64,000 bases of DNA, taken from NCBI RefSeq assembly GCF_013315695.1, contig NZ_CP054353.1; one strand, written 5' to 3'. The notes below the pieces were generated by a model that was not told the DNA's origin, made no database searches, and saw only the letters and a program-made list of their open reading frames with translations. This stretch comes from Escherichia coli. Its GTDB lineage: Bacteria > Pseudomonadota > Gammaproteobacteria > Enterobacterales > Enterobacteriaceae. Below, piece after piece: positions 104-21,704 of this stretch. The number at the start of each line of letters is the position of its first letter. Position 1 is the stretch's first letter. The position numbers and the translations under genes were made by a program.

Positions 104-1291
104 ATGAACTTATCCCTACGACGCTCTACCAGCGCCCTTCTTGCCTCGTCGTTGTTATTAACCATCGGACGCGGCGCTACGCTGCCGTTTATGACCATTT
201 ACTTGAGTCGCCAGTACAGCCTGAGTGTCGATCTAATCGGTTATGCGATGACAATTGCGCTCACTATTGGCGTCGTTTTTAGCCTCGGTTTTGGTATCCT
301 GGCGGATAAGTTCGACAAGAAACGCTATATGTTACTGGCAATTACCGCCTTCGCCAGCGGTTTTATTGCCATTCCTTTAGTGAATAACGTGACGCTGGTG
401 GTGCTCTTTTTTGCCCTTATTAACTGCGCCTATTCCGTCTTTGCTACCGTGTTGAAAGCCTGGTTTGCCGACAATCTTTCGTCCACCAGCAAAACGAAAA
501 TCTTCTCAATCAACTACACCATGCTCAACATTGGCTGGACCATCGGTCCGCCGCTAGGCACGCTGTTGGTGATGCAGAGCATCAATCTGCCCTTCTGGCT
601 GGCAGCTATCTGTTCCGCGTTTCCCATGCTTTTCATTCAAATTTGGGTAAAGCGCAGCGAGAAAATCATCGCTACGGAAACAGGCAGTGTCTGGTCGCCG
701 AAAGTTTTATTACAAGATAAAGCACTGTTGTGGTTTACCTGCTCTGGCTTTCTGGCTTCTTTTGTTAGCGGCGCATTTGCTTCATGCATTTCACAATATG
801 TGATGGTGATTGCTGATGGTGATTTTGCCGAAAAGGTGGTCGCGGTTGTTCTTCCGGTGAATGCTGCCATGGTGGTTACGTTGCAATATTCCGTGGGCCG
901 CCGCCTTAACCCGGCTAACATCCGCGCGCTGATGACAGCAGGCACCCTCTGTTTCGTCATCGGGCTGGTCGGTTTTATTTTTTCCGGCAACAGCCTGCTA
1001 ATGTGGGGTATGTCAGCTGCGGTATTTACTGTCGGTGAAATCATTTATGCGCCGGGCGAGTATATGTTGATTGACCATATTGCACCGCCAGGAATGAAAG
1101 CCAGCTATTTTTCCGCTCAGTCTTTAGGCTGGCTTGGTGCGGCGATTAACCCATTAGTGAGTGGCATAGTGCTTACCAGTCTGCCGCCTTTCTCGCTGTT
1201 TATCATCTTAGCGTTGGTGATCGTTGCTGCGTGGGTGCTGATGTTAAAAGGAATTCGTGCAAGACCGTGGGGGCAGCCCGCGCTTTGTTGA
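104..1291 (+). CDS. ydeE: MFS-type transporter YdeE
   Basis: 395-aa ORF with multi-TM hydrophobic profile; sits immediately upstream of mgtS/dgcZ as in E. coli. Confidence 0.85.
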   Translation: MNLSLRRSTSALLASSLLLTIGRGATLPFMTIYLSRQYSLSVDLIGYAMTIALTIGVVFSLGFGILADKFDKKRYMLLAITAFASGFIAIPLVNNVTLVVLFFALINCAYSVFATVLKAWFADNLSSTSKTKIFSINYTMLNIGWTIGPPLGTLLVMQSINLPFWLAAICSAFPMLFIQIWVKRSEKIIATETGSVWSPKVLLQDKALLWFTCSGFLASFVSGAFASCISQYVMVIADGDFAEKVVAVVLPVNAAMVVTLQYSVGRRLNPANIRALMTAGTLCFVIGLVGFIFSGNSLLMWGMSAAVFTVGEIIYAPGEYMLIDHIAPPGMKASYFSAQSLGWLGAAINPLVSGIVLTSLPPFSLFIILALVIVAAWVLMLKGIRARPWGQPALC

Positions 1292-1417
1292 TTTAAGTCG
1301 AACACAATAAAAATTTAATTCAGCCTTCGTTTAGGTTACCTCTGCTAATATCTTTCTCATTGAGATGAAAATTAAGGTAAGCGAGGAAACACACCACACC
1401 ATAAACGGAGGCAAATA

Positions 1418-1513
1418 ATGCTGGGTAATATGAATGTTTTTATGGCCGTACTGGGAATAATTTTATTTTCTGGGTTTCTGGCCGCGTATTTCAGCCACAA
1501 ATGGGATGACTAA
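1418..1513 (+). CDS. mgtS: small inner-membrane regulatory protein MgtS (31 aa)
   Basis: ATG at 1418; reads MLGNMNVFMAVLGIILFSGFLAAYFSHKWDD then TAA; below the 60-aa ORF-track cutoff, found by direct reading. Confidence 0.8.
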   Translation: MLGNMNVFMAVLGIILFSGFLAAYFSHKWDD

Positions 1514-1543
1514 TGAACGGAGATAATCCCTCACCTAACCGGC

Positions 1544-1579
1544 CCCTTGTTACAACTGTGTACAAGGGGCCTGATTTTT
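1544..1579 (+). terminator. putative rho-independent terminator downstream of mgtS
   Basis: inverted repeat ccccttgta / tacaagggg followed by a T-run. Confidence 0.5.
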
Positions 1580-1588
1580 ATGACGGCG

Positions 1589-1686
1589 AAAAAAAACCGC
1601 CAGTAAACCGGCGGTGAATGCTTGCATGGATAGATTTGTGTTTTGCTTTTACGCTAACAGGCATTTTCCTGCACTGATAACGGATC
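1589..1686 (-). ncRNA. mgrR: MgrR small RNA (PhoPQ-regulated); ends approximate
   Basis: minus strand reads GCAGGAAAATGCCTGTTAGCG...CCGCCGGTTTACTGGCGG followed by a U-run (hairpin terminator); matches MgrR as I remember it; convergent with mgtS. Confidence 0.55.
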
Positions 1687-1731
1687 GTTGACACAGTAGC
1701 ATCAGTTTTCTCAATGAATGTTAAACGGAGC

Positions 1732-2622
1732 TTAAACTCGGTGAATCACGTTTTGTTCGTCAATAAACATGCAGCGATTCCTTCCGGTTTGCTTACCCTC
1801 ATACATTGCCCGGTCCGCTCTTCCAATGACCACATCCAGAGGCTCTTCAGGAAATGCGCGACTCACACCTGCTGTCACGGTAATGTTGATATGCCCTTCA
1901 GAATGTGTGATGGCATGGTTATCGACTAACTGGCAAATTCTGATACCTGCACGACATGCTTCTTCATCATTAGCCGCTTTGACAATAATGATAAATTCTT
2001 CGCCACCGTAGCGATAAACCGTTTCGTAATCGCGCGTCCAACTGGCTAAGTAAGTTGCCAGGGTGCGTAATACTACATCGCCGATTAAATGCCCGTAGGT
2101 ATCATTAACCAATTTAAATCGGTCAATATCCAACAACATTAAATAAAGATTCAGAGGATCAGCATTGCGTAACTGATGATCGAAGGATTCATCAAGAACC
2201 CGACGACCCGGCAATCCCGTCAGAACATCCATATTGCTACGGATCGTCAGCAAATAAATTTTGTAATCGGTTAATGCCGCAGTAAAAGAAAGCAACCCTT
2301 CCTGAAAAGCGTCGAAATGCGCGTCCTGCCAGTGATTTTCAACAATAGCCAGCATTAATTCCCGACCACAGTTATGCATATGTTGATGGGCAGAATCCAT
2401 TAGCCGAACGTAAGGTAATTCATCGTTATCGAGTGGCCCCAGATGATCAATCCACCGACCAAACTGGCACAGTCCATAAGAATGGTTATCCGTTATTTCT
2501 GGCTTACTGGCATCTCTCGCGACCACGCTGTGAAACATACTTACCAGCCACTGGTAGTGGGCATCGATAGCCTTATTGAGATTTAACAAGATGGCATCAA
2601 TTTCCGTTGTCTTCTTGATCAT
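1732..2622 (-). CDS. dgcZ: zinc-sensing diguanylate cyclase DgcZ (YdeH), GGDEF domain
   Basis: RYGGEEF motif in the C-terminal half; 296 aa when started at MIKKTTEIDAILLN; synteny. Confidence 0.9.
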   Translation of the reverse strand: MIKKTTEIDAILLNLNKAIDAHYQWLVSMFHSVVARDASKPEITDNHSYGLCQFGRWIDHLGPLDNDELPYVRLMDSAHQHMHNCGRELMLAIVENHWQDAHFDAFQEGLLSFTAALTDYKIYLLTIRSNMDVLTGLPGRRVLDESFDHQLRNADPLNLYLMLLDIDRFKLVNDTYGHLIGDVVLRTLATYLASWTRDYETVYRYGGEEFIIIVKAANDEEACRAGIRICQLVDNHAITHSEGHINITVTAGVSRAFPEEPLDVVIGRADRAMYEGKQTGRNRCMFIDEQNVIHRV

Positions 2623-11922: not shown

Positions 11923-12513
11923 ATGTCTCGAATTTTTGCTTACTGTCGGATATCAACGCTGGATCAGACCACCGAAAATCAACGCCGGGAAATCGAAAGT
12001 GCAGGTTTTAAAATCAAACCTCAGCAAATAATCGAAGAACACATTAGCGGCTCAGCAGCAACCAGTGAGCGTCCTGGTTTTAACCGGTTGCTTGCTCGCC
12101 TGAAATGTGGTGATCAATTGATTGTGACAAAACTGGATCGCCTTGGTTGTAATGCAATGGATATCAGGAAAACAGTGGAACAACTGACCGAAACAGGTAT
12201 CAGAGTGCATTGCTTAGCATTGGGGGGCATTGACCTGACCAGTCCAACAGGAAAAATGATGATGCAAGTAATTTCAGCAGTCGCTGAATTTGAACGAGAC
12301 CTTTTACTTGAACGCACTCATTCCGGGATAGTAAGAGCCCGGGGCGCAGGGAAACGTTTTGGTCGACCACCTGTGTTAAATGAAGAACAGAAACAGGTGG
12401 TATTCGAACGGATTAAGTCAGGTGTAAGTATAAGTGCCATTGCCCGGGAATTCAAAACCTCGCGGCAAACCATTTTAAGAGCCAAAGCAAAACTTCAGAC
12501 ACCTGACATATAA
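11923..12513 (+). CDS. pinQ: serine recombinase (resolvase/invertase family)
   Basis: 196 aa; N-terminal catalytic domain with Ser in YCRISTLDQ; C-terminal HTH; position next to tail-fibre genes. Confidence 0.8.
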
Positions 12514-13044: not shown

Positions 13045-13749
13045 TTATCCGATATCGCTTCGGGAAACGGATAACAACTTTAATTCTGACTCAAGTTCAT
13101 CAACTCTTTCAGTCAGCTTCTGGATATGGTGAATCAGTGGAACAACCAGACGTTCGTACATTACACCTTCGGCAACAAGGCCATTGCTGGAAATGGTTTC
13201 CGGTGCATCATCTTCGTTGGCTGGTCGCCAGTGAACAAACTGAGGGGCAATTTCTCCTACTTCCTCGGCAATCAATCCATAGAATCCCCAGTCACGCCTG
13301 TCATTTTCGCATTGCGACCTGTACCACACAGGGCGCATCCTGAAAATGAGATCGGCGTGCTCTGAATCTATCGTCTCTACTGAATGTTTATAGCGGATAG
13401 ACGATGTTGACCGCAGCACAGACGAAATTGCAGGGTCAGGATTAAGATAAAGATTTGCCGCCGCTGTAGTTGTGCCCAATCCCCATAAATAAAACGCTTC
13501 ACGGCCAGTCAGCGGGTAAAAATCTCCGCCATAACGACCACTTTCCAGATCGTTCACTTCCACTTTGTTTTTCAGCTTATTATCAACTTCAGTTTTTGTG
13601 TATCTGGTGCTGATATCCTGCTTTGCACTGGCCATATCAGTCTGAAGCGTTGATACTTTTCCGTTAATAGAGGAAATATCTTCCTTTGCTTTACTAACAT
13701 CTCCCTTCAGCGTGGTGATGTCTCCCGGAATTACTGTTGATGTAGCCAT
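13045..13749 (-). CDS. tail-fibre-like protein: N-terminal coiled coil plus C-terminal intramolecular-chaperone-like domain
   Basis: 234-aa ORF; ATG with GAGG upstream; heptad-like N-terminus; C-terminal segment GFYGLIAEEV...GVMYERLVVPLIHHIQKL...LESELKLL resembles the self-cleaving chaperone domain of endosialidase-type fibres. Confidence 0.5.
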   Translation of the reverse strand: MATSTVIPGDITTLKGDVSKAKEDISSINGKVSTLQTDMASAKQDISTRYTKTEVDNKLKNKVEVNDLESGRYGGDFYPLTGREAFYLWGLGTTTAAANLYLNPDPAISSVLRSTSSIRYKHSVETIDSEHADLIFRMRPVWYRSQCENDRRDWGFYGLIAEEVGEIAPQFVHWRPANEDDAPETISSNGLVAEGVMYERLVVPLIHHIQKLTERVDELESELKLLSVSRSDIG

Positions 13750-13758
13750 TTCTCTACC

Positions 13759-14040
13759 TCACATCCAGCCACGAAGTTGATGCTCAACAGCAACCGCGTA
13801 TTCATCGAATAATGACGATATTTGCGTATCCTTAATAATGCGCACGTTTACAAAATATCCATCTTCCTTAACACATACCGGTTCGCCATCTTCAGTCAGC
13901 TCTCCGGTTTCTTTGTACACGTTACCTATCACATCAATCAGAATATCATCCTGCATCGACTCGTCATTATAATAGCCAATACTTCCCATAAAGGCCGAAA
14001 AGTCGGCCCTGTCGGCAAATTTGAGTGTTAAATCTTTCAT
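13759..14040 (-). CDS. hypothetical protein, possibly a tail-fibre assembly chaperone
   Basis: 93-aa acidic ORF; its ATG overlaps the reconstructed pre-IS1 stop of stf. Confidence 0.35.
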   Translation of the reverse strand: MKDLTLKFADRADFSAFMGSIGYYNDESMQDDILIDVIGNVYKETGELTEDGEPVCVKEDGYFVNVRIIKDTQISSLFDEYAVAVEHQLRGWM

Positions 14041-14246
14041 TAGATTGACTCCCCCATCTGAGCATCAGTCAATGCCTTGTGCCAAATACGCAGATTTCGA
14101 ACGTGTCCAAATAGGTGACGGTTGCCGGATGATGATTGACCACCAATATTAATGAAGCCTCCTGTATATTTGTGTTTTTTATAAGGAGAAAGGTGATGCT
14201 GCCAACTTACTGATTTAGTGTATGATGGTGTTTTTGAGGTGCTCCA

Positions 14247-14522
14247 GTGGCTTCTGTTTCTATCAGCTGTCCCTCCTGTTCAGCTACTGACGGGGTGGTG
14301 CGTAACGGCAAAAGCACCGCCGGACATCAGCGCTATCTCTGCTCTCACTGCCGTAAAACATGGCAACTGCAGTTCACTTACACCGCTTCTCAACCCGGTA
14401 CGCACCAGAAAATCATTGATATGGCCATGAATGGCGTTGGATGCCGGGCAACAGCCCGCATTATGGGCGTTGGCCTCAACACGATTTTACGTCACTTAAA
14501 AAACTCAGGCCGCAGTCGGTAA
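14247..14522 (+). CDS. insA: IS1 InsA
   Basis: 91-aa [26 protein letters not shown]... (zinc-finger InsA). Confidence 0.9.
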
Positions 14523-14944
14523 CCTCGCGCATACAGCCGGGCAGTGACGTCATCGTCTGCGCGGAAATGGACGAACAGTGGGGCTATGTCGGGGCTAAAT
14601 CGCGCCAGCGCTGGCTGTTTTACGCGTATGACAGGCTCCGGAAGACGGTTGTTGCGCACGTATTCGGTGAACGCACTATGGCGACGCTGGGGCGTCTTAT
14701 GAGCCTGCTGTCACCCTTTGACGTGGTGATATGGATGACGGATGGCTGGCCGCTGTATGAATCCCGCCTGAAGGGAAAGCTGCACGTAATCAGCAAGCGA
14801 TATACGCAGCGAATTGAGCGGCATAACCTGAATCTGAGGCAGCACCTGGCACGGCTGGGACGGAAGTCGCTGTCGTTCTCAAAATCGGTGGAGCTGCATG
14901 ACAAAGTCATCGGGCATTATCTGAACATAAAACACTATCAATAA
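14441..14944 (+). CDS. insB: IS1 InsB
   Basis: 167-aa ORF overlapping insA in the -1 frame, typical IS1 arrangement. Confidence 0.9.
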
Positions 14945-14954
14945 GTTGGAGTCA

Positions 14955-17228
14955 TTACCAAGGAGAAACTACCTTAGCACCAATATTACCGTTAACCACA
15001 ACACACAATTCTCGACTTTCTGTGAATCTAAAGCCGATAATGCTTTTTCTCTCTGGTCGTTCTATAACGCTTTTATATTCTATTTTAGTGCCTTTACCAT
15101 TTGTAATGATTGCGCGTGCTCCCAAAGATGTATACCCCAAATACATATAACTTTCATCTGCAATTTCAGTTGTATCTCCCGTAGTGGAAATATTAAGAAT
15201 ACGTGCGCTACCTTCTTTGTTTGGCGATTCATCCCAATTGGTATTAACTTCTGCTAATGAACTAATAGCGGGATTGCACCAATTTAGAGAAATGGGGACC
15301 GTTACAATATCGCTGGCGCGTGTTACAGGGGATGCGCCTGTTATAATAAACGATGAAGCGCATGCCCCACCTTCAACTTGAGGGGTCGCAATATAAATAT
15401 AATCATCCGCGCCAGTGCCCACTCCTTTTGCCGGGGCATACTGAACCATTCCACCTATCATATTTTCTGTATCAAGTGCCTTAATTGTCGCCTCAAAAAA
15501 GATCCATTTGCTTGCTTCATCTTTAACAGCCCTTGCAGTAATGCGATTAGCGGCACCACCCGTCTTATCAATAGATAAATCTGTCGTATTTAAGTAAGCG
15601 TCACCTAAGAATGTGTAGGTAGAACCATCATAGTTTTCAAATCGTAATCGGCATCTTAAATTTGGAGTGCCACTTTGCACCCTGCATGATATGGTTACAT
15701 ACTTTTCTCCGCCTGTTACATCAAAACCTTTACTGCCGGAAACGGTTACTATGTTAATCGCTGAAATTTGCCCTACCATTTCTGGTTTTAATGTAAATTT
15801 TGCGTACTGGAATCCGAAATCATCTACACCTGATGCACTTAAGATCATATTTGACGACTTGTTCCATTTAGTCGGATTTGTTGAATTGATTAGCAGGTTA
15901 GTTCTTTGCCCCTCAATAAGCAGGCCATCACGTTCAAATCGTGGCTCGTCAATGGCAGCCTCTGTCAGCACACCAGATTTATTAATGTAAGTTGCTTTCG
16001 ATGCGCGTTTAAACTTTACAATCTTGTCGCCAGGCATTGTTATTTCATCGTCGCCAATAACAATTTTTTTATATGATGGCGAAAAGCCCGTAATCATATC
16101 CAGTGAATCATTAAACGGTATCCACACATCGGGCAACGGCTGCAAAACTTGTTTATACGGCTCCGCTGCCTGGCTTGCATACTCTCTGGCTGCGTCTTCA
16201 CTTGCTTTAGCTGCTGTCTGGCTTGCTGCCGATGCTTGCGCCGAGTTCGCCGCCGCAGTCTCGCTCGCCTTTGCGTTGGTTTCACTGGTTTTTGCTGCTT
16301 TTTGACTGTTAGCTGATGCAGTGGCAGAAGCAGCCGCCGCGCTTGCAGAACTGGCTGCGGCACTCTCGCTTTGGGCCGCTGCATCCTGACTGCTTTTCGC
16401 CGCAGTTTCACTGGCTTTGGCATTCGTTTCGCTGGTCTTCGCTGCCGTCTGGCTGGACTTTGCGTTAGTTTCACTCGTCTTCGCAGCTTTCTGGCTGTTA
16501 GCCGCAGCAGTTGCTGATCCAGCTGCTGAAGTCGCAGAACCGGCTGCCGCGCTCTCGCTTTGGGCTGCTGCAACCTGGCTGTTTTTTGCCGCAGTTTCAC
16601 TGGCTTTGGCATTCGTTTCGCTGGTTTTCGCTGCCGTCTGGCTGGACTTTGCGTTGGTTTCGCTCGTCTTTGCGGCTGTCTCGCTATTTTTCGCGTTGGT
16701 TTCTGATTTTTTGGCTGCTGTCGCGGAGTTTGCCGATGCAGTCTTTGAGGTCGCTGCCGCCTGTGCACTATTAGCTGCATTCGTTTCTGAGGTTTTCGCC
16801 GCGTTCTTCGATGATGCCGCTGCAGTTTCGGATTTCTTTGCCGCCGCTGCGCTCTGAGAGGCGGCTTCAGCGTTGCGTGCCGCTTCTTCCACCATTTCCT
16901 CAAAACGACGCAATGCCTCCGGCATGACATCATCTTCCGTCATGGCACCGAGAAAATCATTCAGCGTACCTGGTCTGGAACCTTCATAGACGGTAATGGT
17001 TCCGGCATGTGAAGGCGGAAAACCTTCAACCAGCAGGGTGACGCTGTACTGGCCATACTCAACATCCATGCTGTAACGCCCGGCTTCATCCGGATTTTCA
17101 GAGGCCACTGTGTTGACCAGTACCGTGGTGCTGTTACGCTTTGCCTTCAGTTGAATAGTGCAGTTCTGTATTGGTTTTCCCGCACCATCTTTCAGCACAC
17201 CTGAGATTTTTACTGCTGCCATATCCAC
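14955..17228 (-). CDS. stf: side tail fibre protein Stf, C-terminus replaced by IS1 read-through
   Basis: N-terminus MAAVKISGVLKDGAGKPIQNCTIQLKA... matches lambda Stf as remembered; Ala/Ser/Thr-rich repeat shaft; stop codon lies inside the IS1 end. Confidence 0.8.
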   Translation of the reverse strand: MDMAAVKISGVLKDGAGKPIQNCTIQLKAKRNSTTVLVNTVASENPDEAGRYSMDVEYGQYSVTLLVEGFPPSHAGTITVYEGSRPGTLNDFLGAMTEDDVMPEALRRFEEMVEEAARNAEAASQSAAAAKKSETAAASSKNAAKTSETNAANSAQAAATSKTASANSATAAKKSETNAKNSETAAKTSETNAKSSQTAAKTSETNAKASETAAKNSQVAAAQSESAAAGSATSAAGSATAAANSQKAAKTSETNAKSSQTAAKTSETNAKASETAAKSSQDAAAQSESAAASSASAAAASATASANSQKAAKTSETNAKASETAAANSAQASAASQTAAKASEDAAREYASQAAEPYKQVLQPLPDVWIPFNDSLDMITGFSPSYKKIVIGDDEITMPGDKIVKFKRASKATYINKSGVLTEAAIDEPRFERDGLLIEGQRTNLLINSTNPTKWNKSSNMILSASGVDDFGFQYAKFTLKPEMVGQISAINIVTVSGSKGFDVTGGEKYVTISCRVQSGTPNLRCRLRFENYDGSTYTFLGDAYLNTTDLSIDKTGGAANRITARAVKDEASKWIFFEATIKALDTENMIGGMVQYAPAKGVGTGADDYIYIATPQVEGGACASSFIITGASPVTRASDIVTVPISLNWCNPAISSLAEVNTNWDESPNKEGSARILNISTTGDTTEIADESYMYLGYTSLGARAIITNGKGTKIEYKSVIERPERKSIIGFRFTESRELCVVVNGNIGAKVVSPW

Positions 17229-17286: not shown

Positions 17287-17886
17287 TCAGAATTTATAAC
17301 CGACACCAACGATGAAACCGTCAGTGCGCCAGTCGCCACTGCCGGAACCTTCATAAGCAATATCAATGGCCACGGATTCGGTCGGGTTAAACTGCACGCC
17401 AGCCCCCCATGCCAGAGACGTGTCGCTGTGGCGACCGTCATCACTTCCGGTCAGCACATCGTGCGTTTTCCCCTTGTTGTCAGTTACGCGGATATAATCT
17501 CCGGAGAAAGTCGAAACACGGCTGTAAGCCATACCCGCCATCGCATACGCGCTGAACCATTCATTCACGCGCACAGACGGCCCCACCATCACGCTGAACC
17601 AGCGGTTACGCACGGAATCTTCATGCCAGCGGGTATCGCTGTAACGGGTAAGCTGGCGATTCTTGTCTCCTGCATAGCTGAATGACGTCACCATCCCCAG
17701 TGTGTCCGTAAACTCATAACGGTATTTCACGTTAATCCCGTTCAGATCATCGCTGCCGGGAACGTTCGTCGAGGCATGAAGATACCCCGCGCTCAGCGTG
17801 GACTGATGTTCAGATGCCCATGCAGGCGCACCGGATACGGCCAGACAAATGGCTGCGGAAAAAATGGCGGCACAAACTTTACGCAT
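17287..17886 (-). CDS. lom: outer-membrane protein Lom (Ail/Lom family)
   Basis: 199 aa; signal peptide [24 protein letters not shown]; C-terminal VGVGYKF beta-barrel end. Confidence 0.9.
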
Positions 17887-17953: not shown

Positions 17954-18793
17954 TCAGCTGATACTGATGCCTGCGGTGGCTTTCTTCATCACCACAACCA
18001 GCAGATCGCTGATACTTGCTGTGGGATACCAGTCATTTACCAGCCATGCTGACACCGAAAACTCCAGCGTCATGTGACCGTGACCGGCAGGCATATCAAT
18101 AACGCCACTGTAAATCAGCGTATTATCCAGCGCGGTACGGTTATAAATTTCAGCACCGTTTTTCCGCACTATCAGACGGCATGAGGAGTAAATATCAGTA
18201 TGCTCTCTCTCATGTTTAGCGCCGCTGAATGCCACCGCCGGAATAACAATCTGCCGGTCAAACGGCTGATCGTCATAAACCCTGACGGTAATGGTCCCTG
18301 ATGGCCACCGTTCCGGTGCACGGGAGTCCCGGGGGAAAGCTTTGCCCACTGTTTTAACGAGATCGCCTTCAATCTGGTTCGCGGACAGTTTTCCCAGAAC
18401 CCGACAGTTCTCGTTAATCGTGACGTTGTTGAGCGTCCCGGAGTTCGCATTCACGTTACCACTGATATCCGCATTTTTAGCAGTCAGCTTTCCGTCCGGT
18501 GTCAGGGAAAATGCCGGTGGATTTCCACCACTGGTAATGGTGGGGGCCGTCAGGCGCTTCAGGAACACGTCGTTCATGAATATCTGGTTGCCCTGCGCCA
18601 CAAACATCGGCGTTTCATTCCCGTTTGCCGGGTCAATAAACGCGATACGATTGGCGGCAACCAGAAACTGACTCAGTTTGCCTTCCTCTGTATCCTCCAT
18701 GCTGAGGCCAATACCCGCGACATAATGTTTGCCGTCTTTGGTCTGCTCAATTTTGACAGCCCACATGGCATTCCATTTATCGTTGGCATCCTT
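17954..18793 (-). pseudogene. tail tip/host-specificity protein J, C-terminal about 280 codons only
   Basis: reads ...[40 protein letters not shown]...[12 protein letters not shown], lambda-J-like C-terminus; upstream part replaced by IS end at 18794. Confidence 0.8.
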
Positions 18794-18801
18794 TGTAGTG
18801 G

Positions 18802-21704
<2,903 letters not shown>

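What the first reader, a model, noticed from the sequence alone, without database searches (positions are those of the whole stretch)
16100..16900. Tandem Ala/Ser/Thr-rich decapeptide-like repeats in the stf shaft generate long shadow ORFs
stf encodes many copies of motifs such as AAKTSETNAK(S/A)S(E/Q)T, including a near-exact duplication of about 90 codons (NSQKAAKTSETNAK...AAAQSESAAA occurs twice). The repetitive GC-rich DNA produces long open frames on both strands that are not genes. Repeat-number variation here could change fibre length.
Basis: seen in the sequence. Interest (0 to 1): 0.15.

Follow-up and report, generated by a model that had tools for sequence, protein, structure and literature searches.

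The report
Heptad-repeat coiled-coil shaft of prophage side tail fibre
The repeats are real, but they are the known 7-residue (not 10-residue) coiled-coil rod of a lambda-type side tail fibre gene, here broken by an IS1 insertion; the long extra ORFs are by-products of its composition, and related phages carry one, two or three copies of a 63-residue block, so the finding is ordinary.

Summary
Window 16161-16901 (minus strand) lies inside a lambda-type side tail fibre gene, stf (start 17222). The gene order is J-lom-stf, and the N-terminal domain matches PF08400 and the solved lambda Stf collar.

- **Repeat unit.** The unit is a heptad, not a decapeptide. There are 35 uninterrupted heptads, x-[A/N]-A-[K/A]-x-S-[E/A/Q], with DNA periods of 21 nt and 189 nt.
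- **Duplication.** The repeated block is 63 codons (9 heptads), not about 90. It is present in 2.3 copies at 82-85% nucleotide identity.
- **Likely structure.** The array aligns with the proximal coiled-coil domain of Ur-lambda Stf (a trimer of Stf chains) and is predicted to be helical throughout. It most likely forms a rod of about 37 nm that holds the distal fibre away from the tail tip.
- **Shadow ORFs.** They are real ORFs (279 aa in the +1 frame; 146, 93 and 87 aa antisense). The +1 frame stays open in every synonymous shuffle, the antisense lengths fall within the null, and substitutions fit selection on the stf frame only.
- **Copy number.** Natural alleles carry 1, 2 or 3 copies of the 63-residue block, and almost all length differences are multiples of 7 residues.
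- **State of the gene here.** IS1 interrupts it, with a 9-bp target duplication.

This is known biology and of low interest. Two side notes: lambda's annotated orf206b and PHROG family 560 appear to be the same antisense shadow ORF.

The parts
14960..17222 (-). stf, 5' part (754 codons of the native reading frame). As it stands the ORF runs on to a stop at 14955 inside IS1. The mechanical ORF list starts it at GTG 17228; annotated homologues start at ATG 17222.
   Evidence: ORF. (PF08400, E=6.8e-67). [quoted passage not shown] (phrog_1419, tail protein).
16938..17222 (-). N-terminal collar domain of Stf (aa 1-95), which docks on the tail tip in lambda.
   Evidence: aa 5-97 align with PDB 9e7m/9mgh 'Tail fiber protein' (lambda Stf 1-94) at E=7.8e-49; the paper describes this domain as a collar around the gpV/gpM junction; predicted beta strands at aa 4-78.
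16161..16901 (-). Heptad-repeat array (aa 108-354, about 35 heptads, single register). Inferred to be the proximal trimeric alpha-helical coiled-coil rod, about 37 nm long.
   Evidence: register and position-specific composition. (21-nt periodicity). (AF2 helices 102-244 and 252-358). (contiguous alignment with lambda Stf). (lambda Stf residues 102-393 form the proximal coiled coil of the trimeric fibre).
16491..16679 (-). Higher-order unit copy 1 (aa 182-244; 63 codons = 9 heptads).
16302..16490 (-). Higher-order unit copy 2 (aa 245-307). It is 85% identical in DNA to copy 1, and a partial third copy follows at about 16251-16301.
16094..16933 (-). Shadow ORF, 279 aa, in the +1 frame of stf (Arg/Gln/Lys/Pro-rich translation). 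Judged not to be a gene.
   Evidence: ORF. (this frame stays open for 281 codons in 1000 of 1000 synonymous shuffles, because only 3 of 247 codons have T at position 2). (82% of substitutions change its amino acids, against 40% for stf). (no family match).
16417..16857 (+). Shadow ORF, 146 aa, antisense to stf in the frame whose wobble positions coincide with those of stf. It is the counterpart of lambda orf206b. Judged not to be a gene.
   Evidence: (155 stop-free codons observed; null mean 148, 5th-95th percentile 89-255). (no excess constraint). (weak match to phrog_560, the orf206b family).
16024..16305 (+). Shadow ORF, 93 aa, antisense.
16511..16774 (+). Shadow ORF, 87 aa, antisense.
15315..15920 (-). 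Distal-part domain of this Stf (aa 435-636), resembling the 'phage head spike fiber' domain.
   Evidence: NF048003 GTA_spike_fiber, E=1.6e-16, 61 bits against a cut-off of 36.
14192..14959 (+). IS1 element (768 bp) inserted in stf, flanked by a 9-bp target duplication AAGGAGAAA at 14183-14191 and 14960-14968.
   Evidence: alignment to the uninterrupted homologue, IS1 inverted repeat, duplicated 9-mer. (IS1 transposase ORFs). (none of 5426 complete E. coli genomes shares the junction).
14040..14191 (-). 3' remnant of stf (last ~47 codons plus stop), separated from the rest of the gene by IS1.
   Evidence: window 14191-13706 aligns to L001 6261-6746 at 97.7% identity. The stf homologue there ends at L001 6412, which corresponds to window 14040.

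Best explanation
The repeats are the proximal shaft of a lambda-type side tail fibre (Stf) encoded by a defective lambdoid prophage.

About 35 uninterrupted heptads place small residues (Ala/Asn, Ala, Ser) on one face of a long alpha-helix. Three Stf chains would pack these faces into a parallel trimeric coiled-coil rod of roughly 37 nm. The rod joins the N-terminal collar domain on the tail tip to the distal, receptor-recognising part of the fibre.

The array has a higher-order 63-residue (9-heptad, 189-nt) unit. Unequal recombination between units adds or removes whole units, so alleles with 1, 2 or 3 units exist, giving rods of about 27, 37 and 46 nm. Smaller length changes are also whole heptads, which keeps the coiled-coil register.

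The extra ORFs are automatic consequences of the Ala/Ser/Thr/Lys/Glu codon set and are not genes. In this window the gene is inactivated or truncated by IS1.

- **Shown here:** gene identity, heptad register, periodicities, allele series, ORF null models, IS1 insertion.
- **Inferred:** trimeric coiled-coil assembly (by homology to Ur-lambda Stf) and the physical lengths (0.148 nm per residue).
For: - **Gene identity.** PF08400 at E=7e-67. The lambda Stf collar structure 9e7m matches at E=8e-49. J-lom-stf order. 61% identity to lambda Stf over 285 aa, running from the collar into the repeats, with one gap of 14 residues = 2 heptads.
- **Heptad array.** A single phase runs across aa 108-354, with Ala 32/35 at position 3, Ser 32/34 at position 6 and Ala/Asn 32/35 at position 2. 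The same register is found in lambda Stf (aa 121-353) and K-12 StfR (aa 114-451).
- **Helix.** The AF2 monomer model is helical over 102-244 and 252-358, with pLDDT 60-79.
- **Published structure.** For Ur-lambda, cryo-EM and cryo-ET combined with AlphaFold3 give collar 1-91, linker 92-101, proximal coiled coil 102-393 and hinge 394-422 in a fibre made of three Stf chains. The cryo-EM map resolves a trimeric bundle joined to three collar domains by flexible linkers (PMC12617516).
- **Copy number.** Among 118 homologue clusters with both anchors, the anchor-to-anchor distance is 247 aa in 52 and 184 aa (-63) in 50. Differences of -49, -28, -14 and -7 also occur. In total 111 of 118 are multiples of 7, and only 4 show a phase break. 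Phage IdasGreatGrand has 26 heptads, PhiR11_1 has 32, and 2G7b, PhiR46_1 and ev207 have 35. Seventy-one distinct IMG/VR proteins have about 33, 36 or 45 heptads, all in a single phase. The alleles carry 1, 2 or 3 AAAQSESAAA-containing units. The single unit of IdasGreatGrand is a unit1/unit2 hybrid, as unequal crossing-over would produce.
- **Shadow ORFs.**
Against: - No solved atomic structure covers this repeat. In the depolymerases that share the motif (7LZJ, 7VYV) the segment up to residue 185, which contains it, is not visible in the cryo-EM map.
- The AF2 model has low confidence overall (mean pLDDT 57, pTM 0.22). It folds the helix back on itself, which is an artefact of modelling a monomer.
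- An Ala/Ser core is atypical for canonical coiled coils, and the oligomeric state was not tested here.
- Seven of 118 homologue clusters differ by lengths that are not multiples of 7.
- The functional effect of length variation is untested.
- The gene in this window is interrupted, so nothing here is likely to function in this genome.
Confidence: 0.85

Rival explanations
1. The Ala/Ser/Thr-rich region is a flexible, intrinsically disordered low-complexity linker rather than a structured coiled-coil rod. On this view repeat number only changes tether length.
For: The composition is low-complexity (A 37%, S 19%, T 11%). The core positions carry Ala and Ser rather than Leu, Ile or Val. AF2 confidence is modest. 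The matching segment is not visible in the Depo32 cryo-EM map.
Against: A disordered linker has no reason to keep a strict 7-residue register over 35 repeats, or to restrict indels to multiples of 7. The whole array is predicted helical. The homologous lambda segment appears as a trimeric bundle and a straight proximal rod in cryo-EM and cryo-ET.
Confidence: 0.05
2. One of the overlapping ORFs is a real gene embedded in stf. The strongest candidate is the antisense ORF in the wobble-coinciding frame, the lambda orf206b / phrog_560 family.
For: Lambda RefSeq annotates orf206b as a hypothetical protein antisense to the same array. It defines phrog_560 (E=1.7e-59), which the window's 146-aa ORF also hits (E=2.3e-7). 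This frame stays open for 120-262 codons in all homologues examined. Among stf-synonymous transversions, antisense-nonsynonymous changes are slightly fewer than expected (22% against 35%, n=59).
Against: The ORF length is what the Stf protein sequence gives by itself: null mean 148 codons, observed 155, and 39% of shuffles reach or exceed it. In this frame stops can arise only at Tyr codons, or at Gln/His codons that follow a T-ending codon. Pooling transitions and transversions shows no net constraint (21 observed against about 25 expected). Conservation in this frame is confounded by the shared wobble positions. There are no Pfam or NCBIfam matches. PGAP and recent phage annotations do not call it. 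Knocking down orf206b has no phenotype, though the same is true of stf in laboratory lambda.
Confidence: 0.04
3. The main significance of the repeated DNA is as a recombination substrate. Shared heptad-coding sequence would let divergent stf genes exchange distal receptor-binding modules, and rod-length variation would be incidental.
For: Similarity to other alleles breaks off at the start of the array (L008, at about aa 100), inside it (PhiR11_1, 96% falling to 65% at about aa 300; phage hits ending at nt 897) or after it (2G7b, at about aa 450). The same KTSETNAK-type heptads occur in many PHROG tail-fibre families and in Klebsiella phage depolymerases.
Against: This reading complements the structural one and does not exclude it. 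Junctions also lie outside the array. The breakpoint distribution was not tested statistically here.
Confidence: 0.3

Closest known systems
[quoted passage not shown]
   Same: Both have a PF08400 collar domain (about 90% identical over aa 3-97), followed by a linker and then an unbroken Ala/Ser/Thr-rich heptad array in the same register. Both genes lie after J and lom.
   Different: The repeats here are more regular (TAAKTSE/TNAKxSE) and carry a 63-residue higher-order unit. The distal part is not the lambda/T4 gp37-like module but contains a GTA-spike-fibre-like domain. Separate small tail-fibre genes follow it. The gene is interrupted by IS1.
E. coli K-12 Rac prophage StfR and Qin-region prophage tail fibre genes
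   Same: They share the N-terminal domain and the heptad array: StfR has about 48 heptads in one phase. The uninterrupted homologue in E. coli 755 sits next to pinQ, ydfK and ydfJ, which is Qin-like.
   Different: Array length and distal modules differ. DNA similarity to K-12 stfR covers only the first 131 nt of the query, at about 85%.
Lambda orf206b (lambdap90) / PHROG phrog_560
   Same: It is an antisense ORF inside the stf heptad array, in the same relative frame as window 16417-16857, with a similar Ala/Phe/Val/Ser/Asp-rich translation.
   Different: It is annotated as a protein in lambda, and nothing here supports that. In the window the ORF is shorter (146 aa against 206 aa) and matches the family only weakly.
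N-terminal 'helical bundle' segment of Klebsiella phage K2 depolymerases DpK2 (7LZJ) and Depo32 (7VYV, 7VZ3)
   Same: A short stretch of the same heptads (…KTSEDNAKSSENAAKNSE…) lies between the anchor domain and the enzymatic body.
   Different: It is only about 6 heptads long, is unresolved in the cryo-EM map, and the proteins are otherwise unrelated tailspikes.

Membership tests
Lambda-type side tail fibre (Stf) | N-terminal 'prophage tail fibre N-terminal' collar domain (PF08400) | tested here: met
   E=6.8e-67, 224 bits against a cut-off of 26.6. PDB 9e7m (lambda Stf 1-94) at E=7.8e-49.
Lambda-type side tail fibre (Stf) | Position in the tail module, downstream of J and lom | tested here: met
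   a J C-terminal fragment at 17954-18805 and lom at 17287-17886 lie immediately upstream on the same strand. The order is the same in phages 2G7b, PhiR46_1, IdasGreatGrand and lambda.
Lambda-type side tail fibre (Stf) | Proximal Ala/Ser-rich heptad segment continuous with the collar domain | tested here: met
   the register is the same as in lambda Stf and StfR, and the alignment is contiguous.
Lambda-type side tail fibre (Stf) | Intact reading frame with a distal receptor-binding part and an assembly chaperone | tested here: not met
   IS1 at 14192-14959 separates the last ~47 codons, so the gene here is a disrupted copy. A tfa-type chaperone was not looked for in the window.
Alpha-helical coiled coil (parallel trimer) | Heptad periodicity with a continuous register | tested here: met
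   21-nt periodicity (z=14) and one phase over 247 residues.
Alpha-helical coiled coil (parallel trimer) | Apolar residues at the a and d positions | tested here: inconclusive
   the stripe is Ala (32/35), Ser (32/34) and Ala/Asn (32/35). These residues are small but not classically hydrophobic.
Alpha-helical coiled coil (parallel trimer) | Helical secondary structure | tested here: met
   helices 102-244 and 252-358 in the AF2 model. Confidence is moderate, with block means of 58-79 over most of the two helices, falling to 39-52 around the modelled turn at aa 245-251.
Alpha-helical coiled coil (parallel trimer) | Trimeric parallel assembly | not testable with these tools
   Only monomer prediction is available. 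The assembly is inferred from Ur-lambda cryo-EM and cryo-ET.
Contingency locus (phase-variable simple-sequence repeat) | Short, near-identical tandem units whose slippage switches the reading frame or expression | tested here: not met
   the units are 21 and 189 nt long, always in frame, and only 66-85% identical. The observed variation preserves the frame and the heptad register.
Overlapping protein-coding gene (for the shadow ORFs) | ORF longer than the host gene's sequence would produce by itself, and independent purifying selection | tested here: not met
   (lengths within the null; the +1 frame is open in 100% of synonymous shuffles). (82-89% of substitutions are non-synonymous in the alternative frames; no net constraint in the wobble-sharing antisense frame).

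The most novel reading that the evidence does not exclude
The 1-, 2- and 3-unit alleles (about 27, 37 and 46 nm of proximal rod) might be an adaptive length polymorphism rather than neutral recombination products. Cassettes of 9 heptads gained or lost by unequal crossing-over would tune how far the receptor-binding tip reaches, matching host O-antigen or capsule thickness. The heptad-coding DNA would also serve as the preferred crossover site for swapping distal modules.
Probability: 0.2. Interest if true: 0.4.

Novelty: already known. Interest (0 to 1): 0.1.

Why it matters
The finding matters little as a discovery. The gene, its coiled-coil shaft and the spurious ORFs are all established features of lambdoid phages, and this copy is a transposon-disrupted prophage remnant.

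It has three minor practical uses:
- The heptad rule and the 63-residue cassette give a simple way to annotate Stf alleles and to design fibres of different length.
- Lambda orf206b and PHROG family 560 look like annotation artefacts and should be flagged as such.
- The array is a place where gene callers and assemblers can go wrong.

Tried and rejected
- **Solved structure of the repeat.** I searched PDB sequences for one. Only the lambda collar domain (9e7m/9mgh) is solved. The depolymerases that share the motif have that segment unresolved.
- **Monomer AlphaFold2 of aa 1-441.** It supports helicity, but confidence is low and the helix folds into a hairpin. It says nothing about oligomeric state, so I did not run a fold search on it. 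I also chose not to model a linker-joined pseudo-trimer, because the linkers would bias helix orientation.
- **Exact-sequence look-ups of the shadow ORFs.** None was found. The positive control, lambda orf206b, was not found either, so these results are uninformative.
- **Literature search on heptad number and fibre length.** It returned nothing relevant.
- **Decapeptide period.** Rejected: the self-match at lag 30 nt is not enriched.
- **Contingency-locus reading.** Rejected: the units are long, divergent and always in frame.
- **Shared IS1 junction.** I checked whether any complete E. coli genome has the same IS1/stf junction. None of 5426 does.
Full report
**What is at the coordinates**

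The region lies inside a 757-codon ORF on the minus strand (14955-17228). Annotated homologues start at the ATG at 17222.
- The product matches Pfam PF08400 'prophage tail fibre N-terminal' at E=6.8e-67.
- Residues 5-97 match the solved N-terminal collar domain of lambda Stf (PDB 9e7m/9mgh) at E=7.8e-49.
- The protein falls in PHROG tail-protein family 1419.
- Immediately upstream on the same strand are lom (17287-17886, PF06316, E=7e-120) and a C-terminal fragment of the J tip-attachment protein (17954-18805). This is the J-lom-stf order of lambda and of phages 2G7b, PhiR46_1 and IdasGreatGrand.
- The DNA is 99.6% identical over 2269 nt to an 801-codon gene in E. coli strain 755. There it sits beside pinQ, ydfK and ydfJ, a Qin-like prophage site.

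**Checking the repetition**

- Tandem Repeats Finder reports a 189-nt period (2.3 copies, 83% matches, score 604, 16251-16685) and shorter 21- and 42-nt periods.
- The repeat finder gives families of 8-10 copies spaced at multiples of 21 nt, and no inverted repeats.
- A self-match profile of 16164-16889 peaks at lag 21 (0.51 against 0.29, z=14) and lag 189 (0.64, z=16.5). Against codon-permuted controls, which keep codon usage and the 3-nt period, these are still z=8.8 and z=15.5. All other strong lags (match fraction 0.45 or more, z 7-12) are multiples of 21; a few weak ones are not (12, 27, 90, 216, 279, 321; z 4-5). Lag 30 is not enriched, and the rest of the gene shows nothing comparable.
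- Written in sevens, the protein reads as 35 consecutive heptads in one unbroken register: x-[A/N]-A-[K/A]-x-S-[E/A/Q]. Position 3 is Ala in 32 of 35, position 6 is Ser in 32 of 34, and position 2 is Ala or Asn in 32 of 35.
It is not a decapeptide.
- The duplication is a 63-codon (9-heptad) unit. Its two full copies are 82-85% identical in DNA and 86% in protein. It is not about 90 codons and not near-exact.
- The array is 57% G+C, against 48% for the window, and has only 8.7% T on the coding strand.

**What it is**

- The same register runs through lambda Stf (aa 121-353) and K-12 StfR (aa 114-451).
- The window protein aligns with lambda Stf continuously from the collar into the repeats (61% identity over 285 aa). 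The only gap is 14 residues, which is two heptads.
- For Ur-lambda, cryo-EM and cryo-ET combined with AlphaFold3 gave this layout: collar 1-91, flexible linker 92-101, proximal coiled-coil domain 102-393, hinge 394-422, distal domain. [quoted passage not shown]
- An AlphaFold2 monomer model of aa 1-441 gives beta strands for the collar and helices at 102-244 and 252-358. These cover exactly the heptad array. Confidence is only moderate (mean pLDDT 57; 58-79 over most of the helices, lower around the modelled turn), and the model contains a hairpin that is a monomer artefact.
- I conclude that the array is the proximal trimeric coiled-coil rod. At 0.148 nm per residue, 247 residues give about 37 nm.
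- The trimeric state and the physical length are inferred, not shown here.
- The small Ala/Ser/Asn stripe is unusual for a coiled-coil core. No atomic structure covers such a segment: in the Klebsiella depolymerases that share a few of these heptads, that part is invisible in the maps.

**Copy-number variation**

- Among the 120 best homologue clusters, 118 have both flanking anchors. The anchor-to-anchor distance is 247 residues in 52 clusters and 184 (-63, one unit) in 50. Smaller groups lie at -49, -28, -14 and -7.
- In all, 111 of 118 differ by a multiple of 7, and only 4 show a break in heptad phase.
- Isolated phages differ too. IdasGreatGrand has 26 heptads, PhiR11_1 has 32, and 2G7b, PhiR46_1 and ev207 have 35.
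- Seventy-one distinct proteins from IMG/VR contigs have about 33, 36 or 45 heptads, every one in a single phase.
- The alleles carry one, two or three copies of the AAAQSESAAA-containing unit.
- The single unit of IdasGreatGrand resembles window unit 1 at its 5' end and unit 2 at its 3' end, as expected from unequal crossing-over. The extra unit of the three-copy allele is 93% identical to its neighbour.
The counts are of sequence clusters, not independent events, and no functional consequence has been tested.

**Shadow ORFs**

The ORFs exist as described. Several tests indicate that they are by-products.
- With the Stf protein kept and synonymous codons shuffled, the +1 frame stays open for 281 codons in 1000 of 1000 trials. 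Stops in that frame need T at codon position 2, and only 3 of 247 codons have it.
- The three antisense frames have observed stop-free lengths of 69, 155 and 90 codons. These lie well inside the shuffled distributions: 84%, 39% and 21% of shuffles reach or exceed them.
- Against six equal-length homologues, 63-100% of substitutions fall at stf codon position 3. The +1 frame collects 2-4 times more amino-acid changes than stf.
- Pooling 284 unique substitutions from 71 homologues, 40% are non-synonymous in stf and 82-89% in four other frames. The antisense frame that shares wobble positions with stf shows 45%.
- In that frame, stf-synonymous changes are antisense-nonsynonymous about as often as expected overall (21 observed against about 25 expected).
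- No Pfam or NCBIfam family matches any of the ORFs. Current genome and phage annotations do not call them.

**A related observation**

The lambda reference genome annotates orf206b (lambdap90, 'hypothetical protein') antisense to the same heptad array and in the same relative frame. It defines PHROG family 560 (E=1.7e-59). The window's 146-aa antisense ORF also hits that family weakly (E=2.3e-7). A CRISPRi essentiality screen listed orf206b as a gene. On the evidence above, this 'family' is most simply a collection of shadow ORFs.

**State of the gene in this window**

- An IS1 element (14192-14959) is inserted 47 codons before the natural stop. It is flanked by a 9-bp target duplication, AAGGAGAAA.
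- The 3' remnant (14040-14191) and the downstream small genes continue the uninterrupted homologue at 97.7% identity.
- None of 5426 complete E. coli genomes shares the junction.
- J is also truncated, next to IS3-family and IS30 transposase genes. The prophage is therefore defective.

**Mosaicism**

Identity to other alleles drops at different points: at the start of the array (L008), inside it near aa 300 (PhiR11_1), or after it near aa 450 (2G7b). This fits the known modular exchange of tail-fibre parts. I did not test whether junctions are enriched in the array.

**Verdict**

Its period and duplication size were mis-described. It is the known coiled-coil shaft of lambda-type side tail fibres. 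The extra ORFs are artefacts of composition, and natural copy-number alleles exist. Novelty: already known. Interest: low.

Noticed in passing
window 14183-14968: An IS1 element (14192-14959) is inserted near the 3' end of stf, with a 9-bp target-site duplication AAGGAGAAA. The stf 3' remnant is retained at 14040-14191. None of 5426 complete E. coli genomes has this junction.
   Followed up: yes
window 17954-20923: The J (tail tip) gene is reduced to a C-terminal 283-codon ORF. It abuts an IS3-family transposase ORF (18802-19548, minus strand), which is followed by an IS30 transposase gene (19772-20923). The prophage is heavily degraded by IS elements, a density reminiscent of Shigella-like genomes, but the organism was not identified.
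   Followed up: partly
L010 (lambda NC_001416) 1248-1868, minus strand: Lambda's reference annotation carries orf206b (lambdap90, hypothetical protein) antisense to the stf heptad array, in the wobble-sharing frame. It matches PHROG phrog_560 at E=1.7e-59, and the window's antisense ORF 16417-16857 hits the same family at E=2.3e-7. This PHROG family of 'unknown function' is probably made up of shadow ORFs.
   Followed up: partly
window 15315-15920 (Stf aa 435-636): The distal part of this Stf matches NCBIfam NF048003 'phage head spike fiber domain' (GTA spike fibre) rather than the lambda/T4 gp37-like distal module. The gene is followed by a 93-aa ORF (13759-14040, phrog_1361) and a 234-aa tail-fibre-like ORF (13045-13749). 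A Pin-type invertase gene lies at 11923-12513 on the opposite strand.
   Followed up: partly
L006 (phage PhiR11_1), L008 (E. coli GPEC1054) and L003 (phage 2G7b) compared with window stf: Mosaic junctions between stf alleles fall at the start of the heptad array (about aa 100), inside it (about aa 300) and after the hinge (about aa 450). The array may act as a crossover zone for exchanging modules.
   Followed up: partly
L033 (IMGVR_UViG_2541047862_000009) and L002 (phage IdasGreatGrand PP925829): A three-unit allele (855-aa Stf, about 45 heptads) and a one-unit allele (731 aa, 26 heptads) bracket the two-unit allele in the window. The one-unit copy is a unit1/unit2 hybrid, consistent with unequal crossing-over.
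   Followed up: yes
PDB 7LZJ, 7VYV and 7VZ3, residues about 130-192: Klebsiella phage K2 capsule depolymerases (DpK2, Depo32) carry a short run of the same KTSE(D/T)NAKSSE heptads in their N-terminal 'helical bundle', which is not resolved in the cryo-EM map. The motif is a widely shared spacer module in phage receptor-binding proteins.
   Followed up: partly
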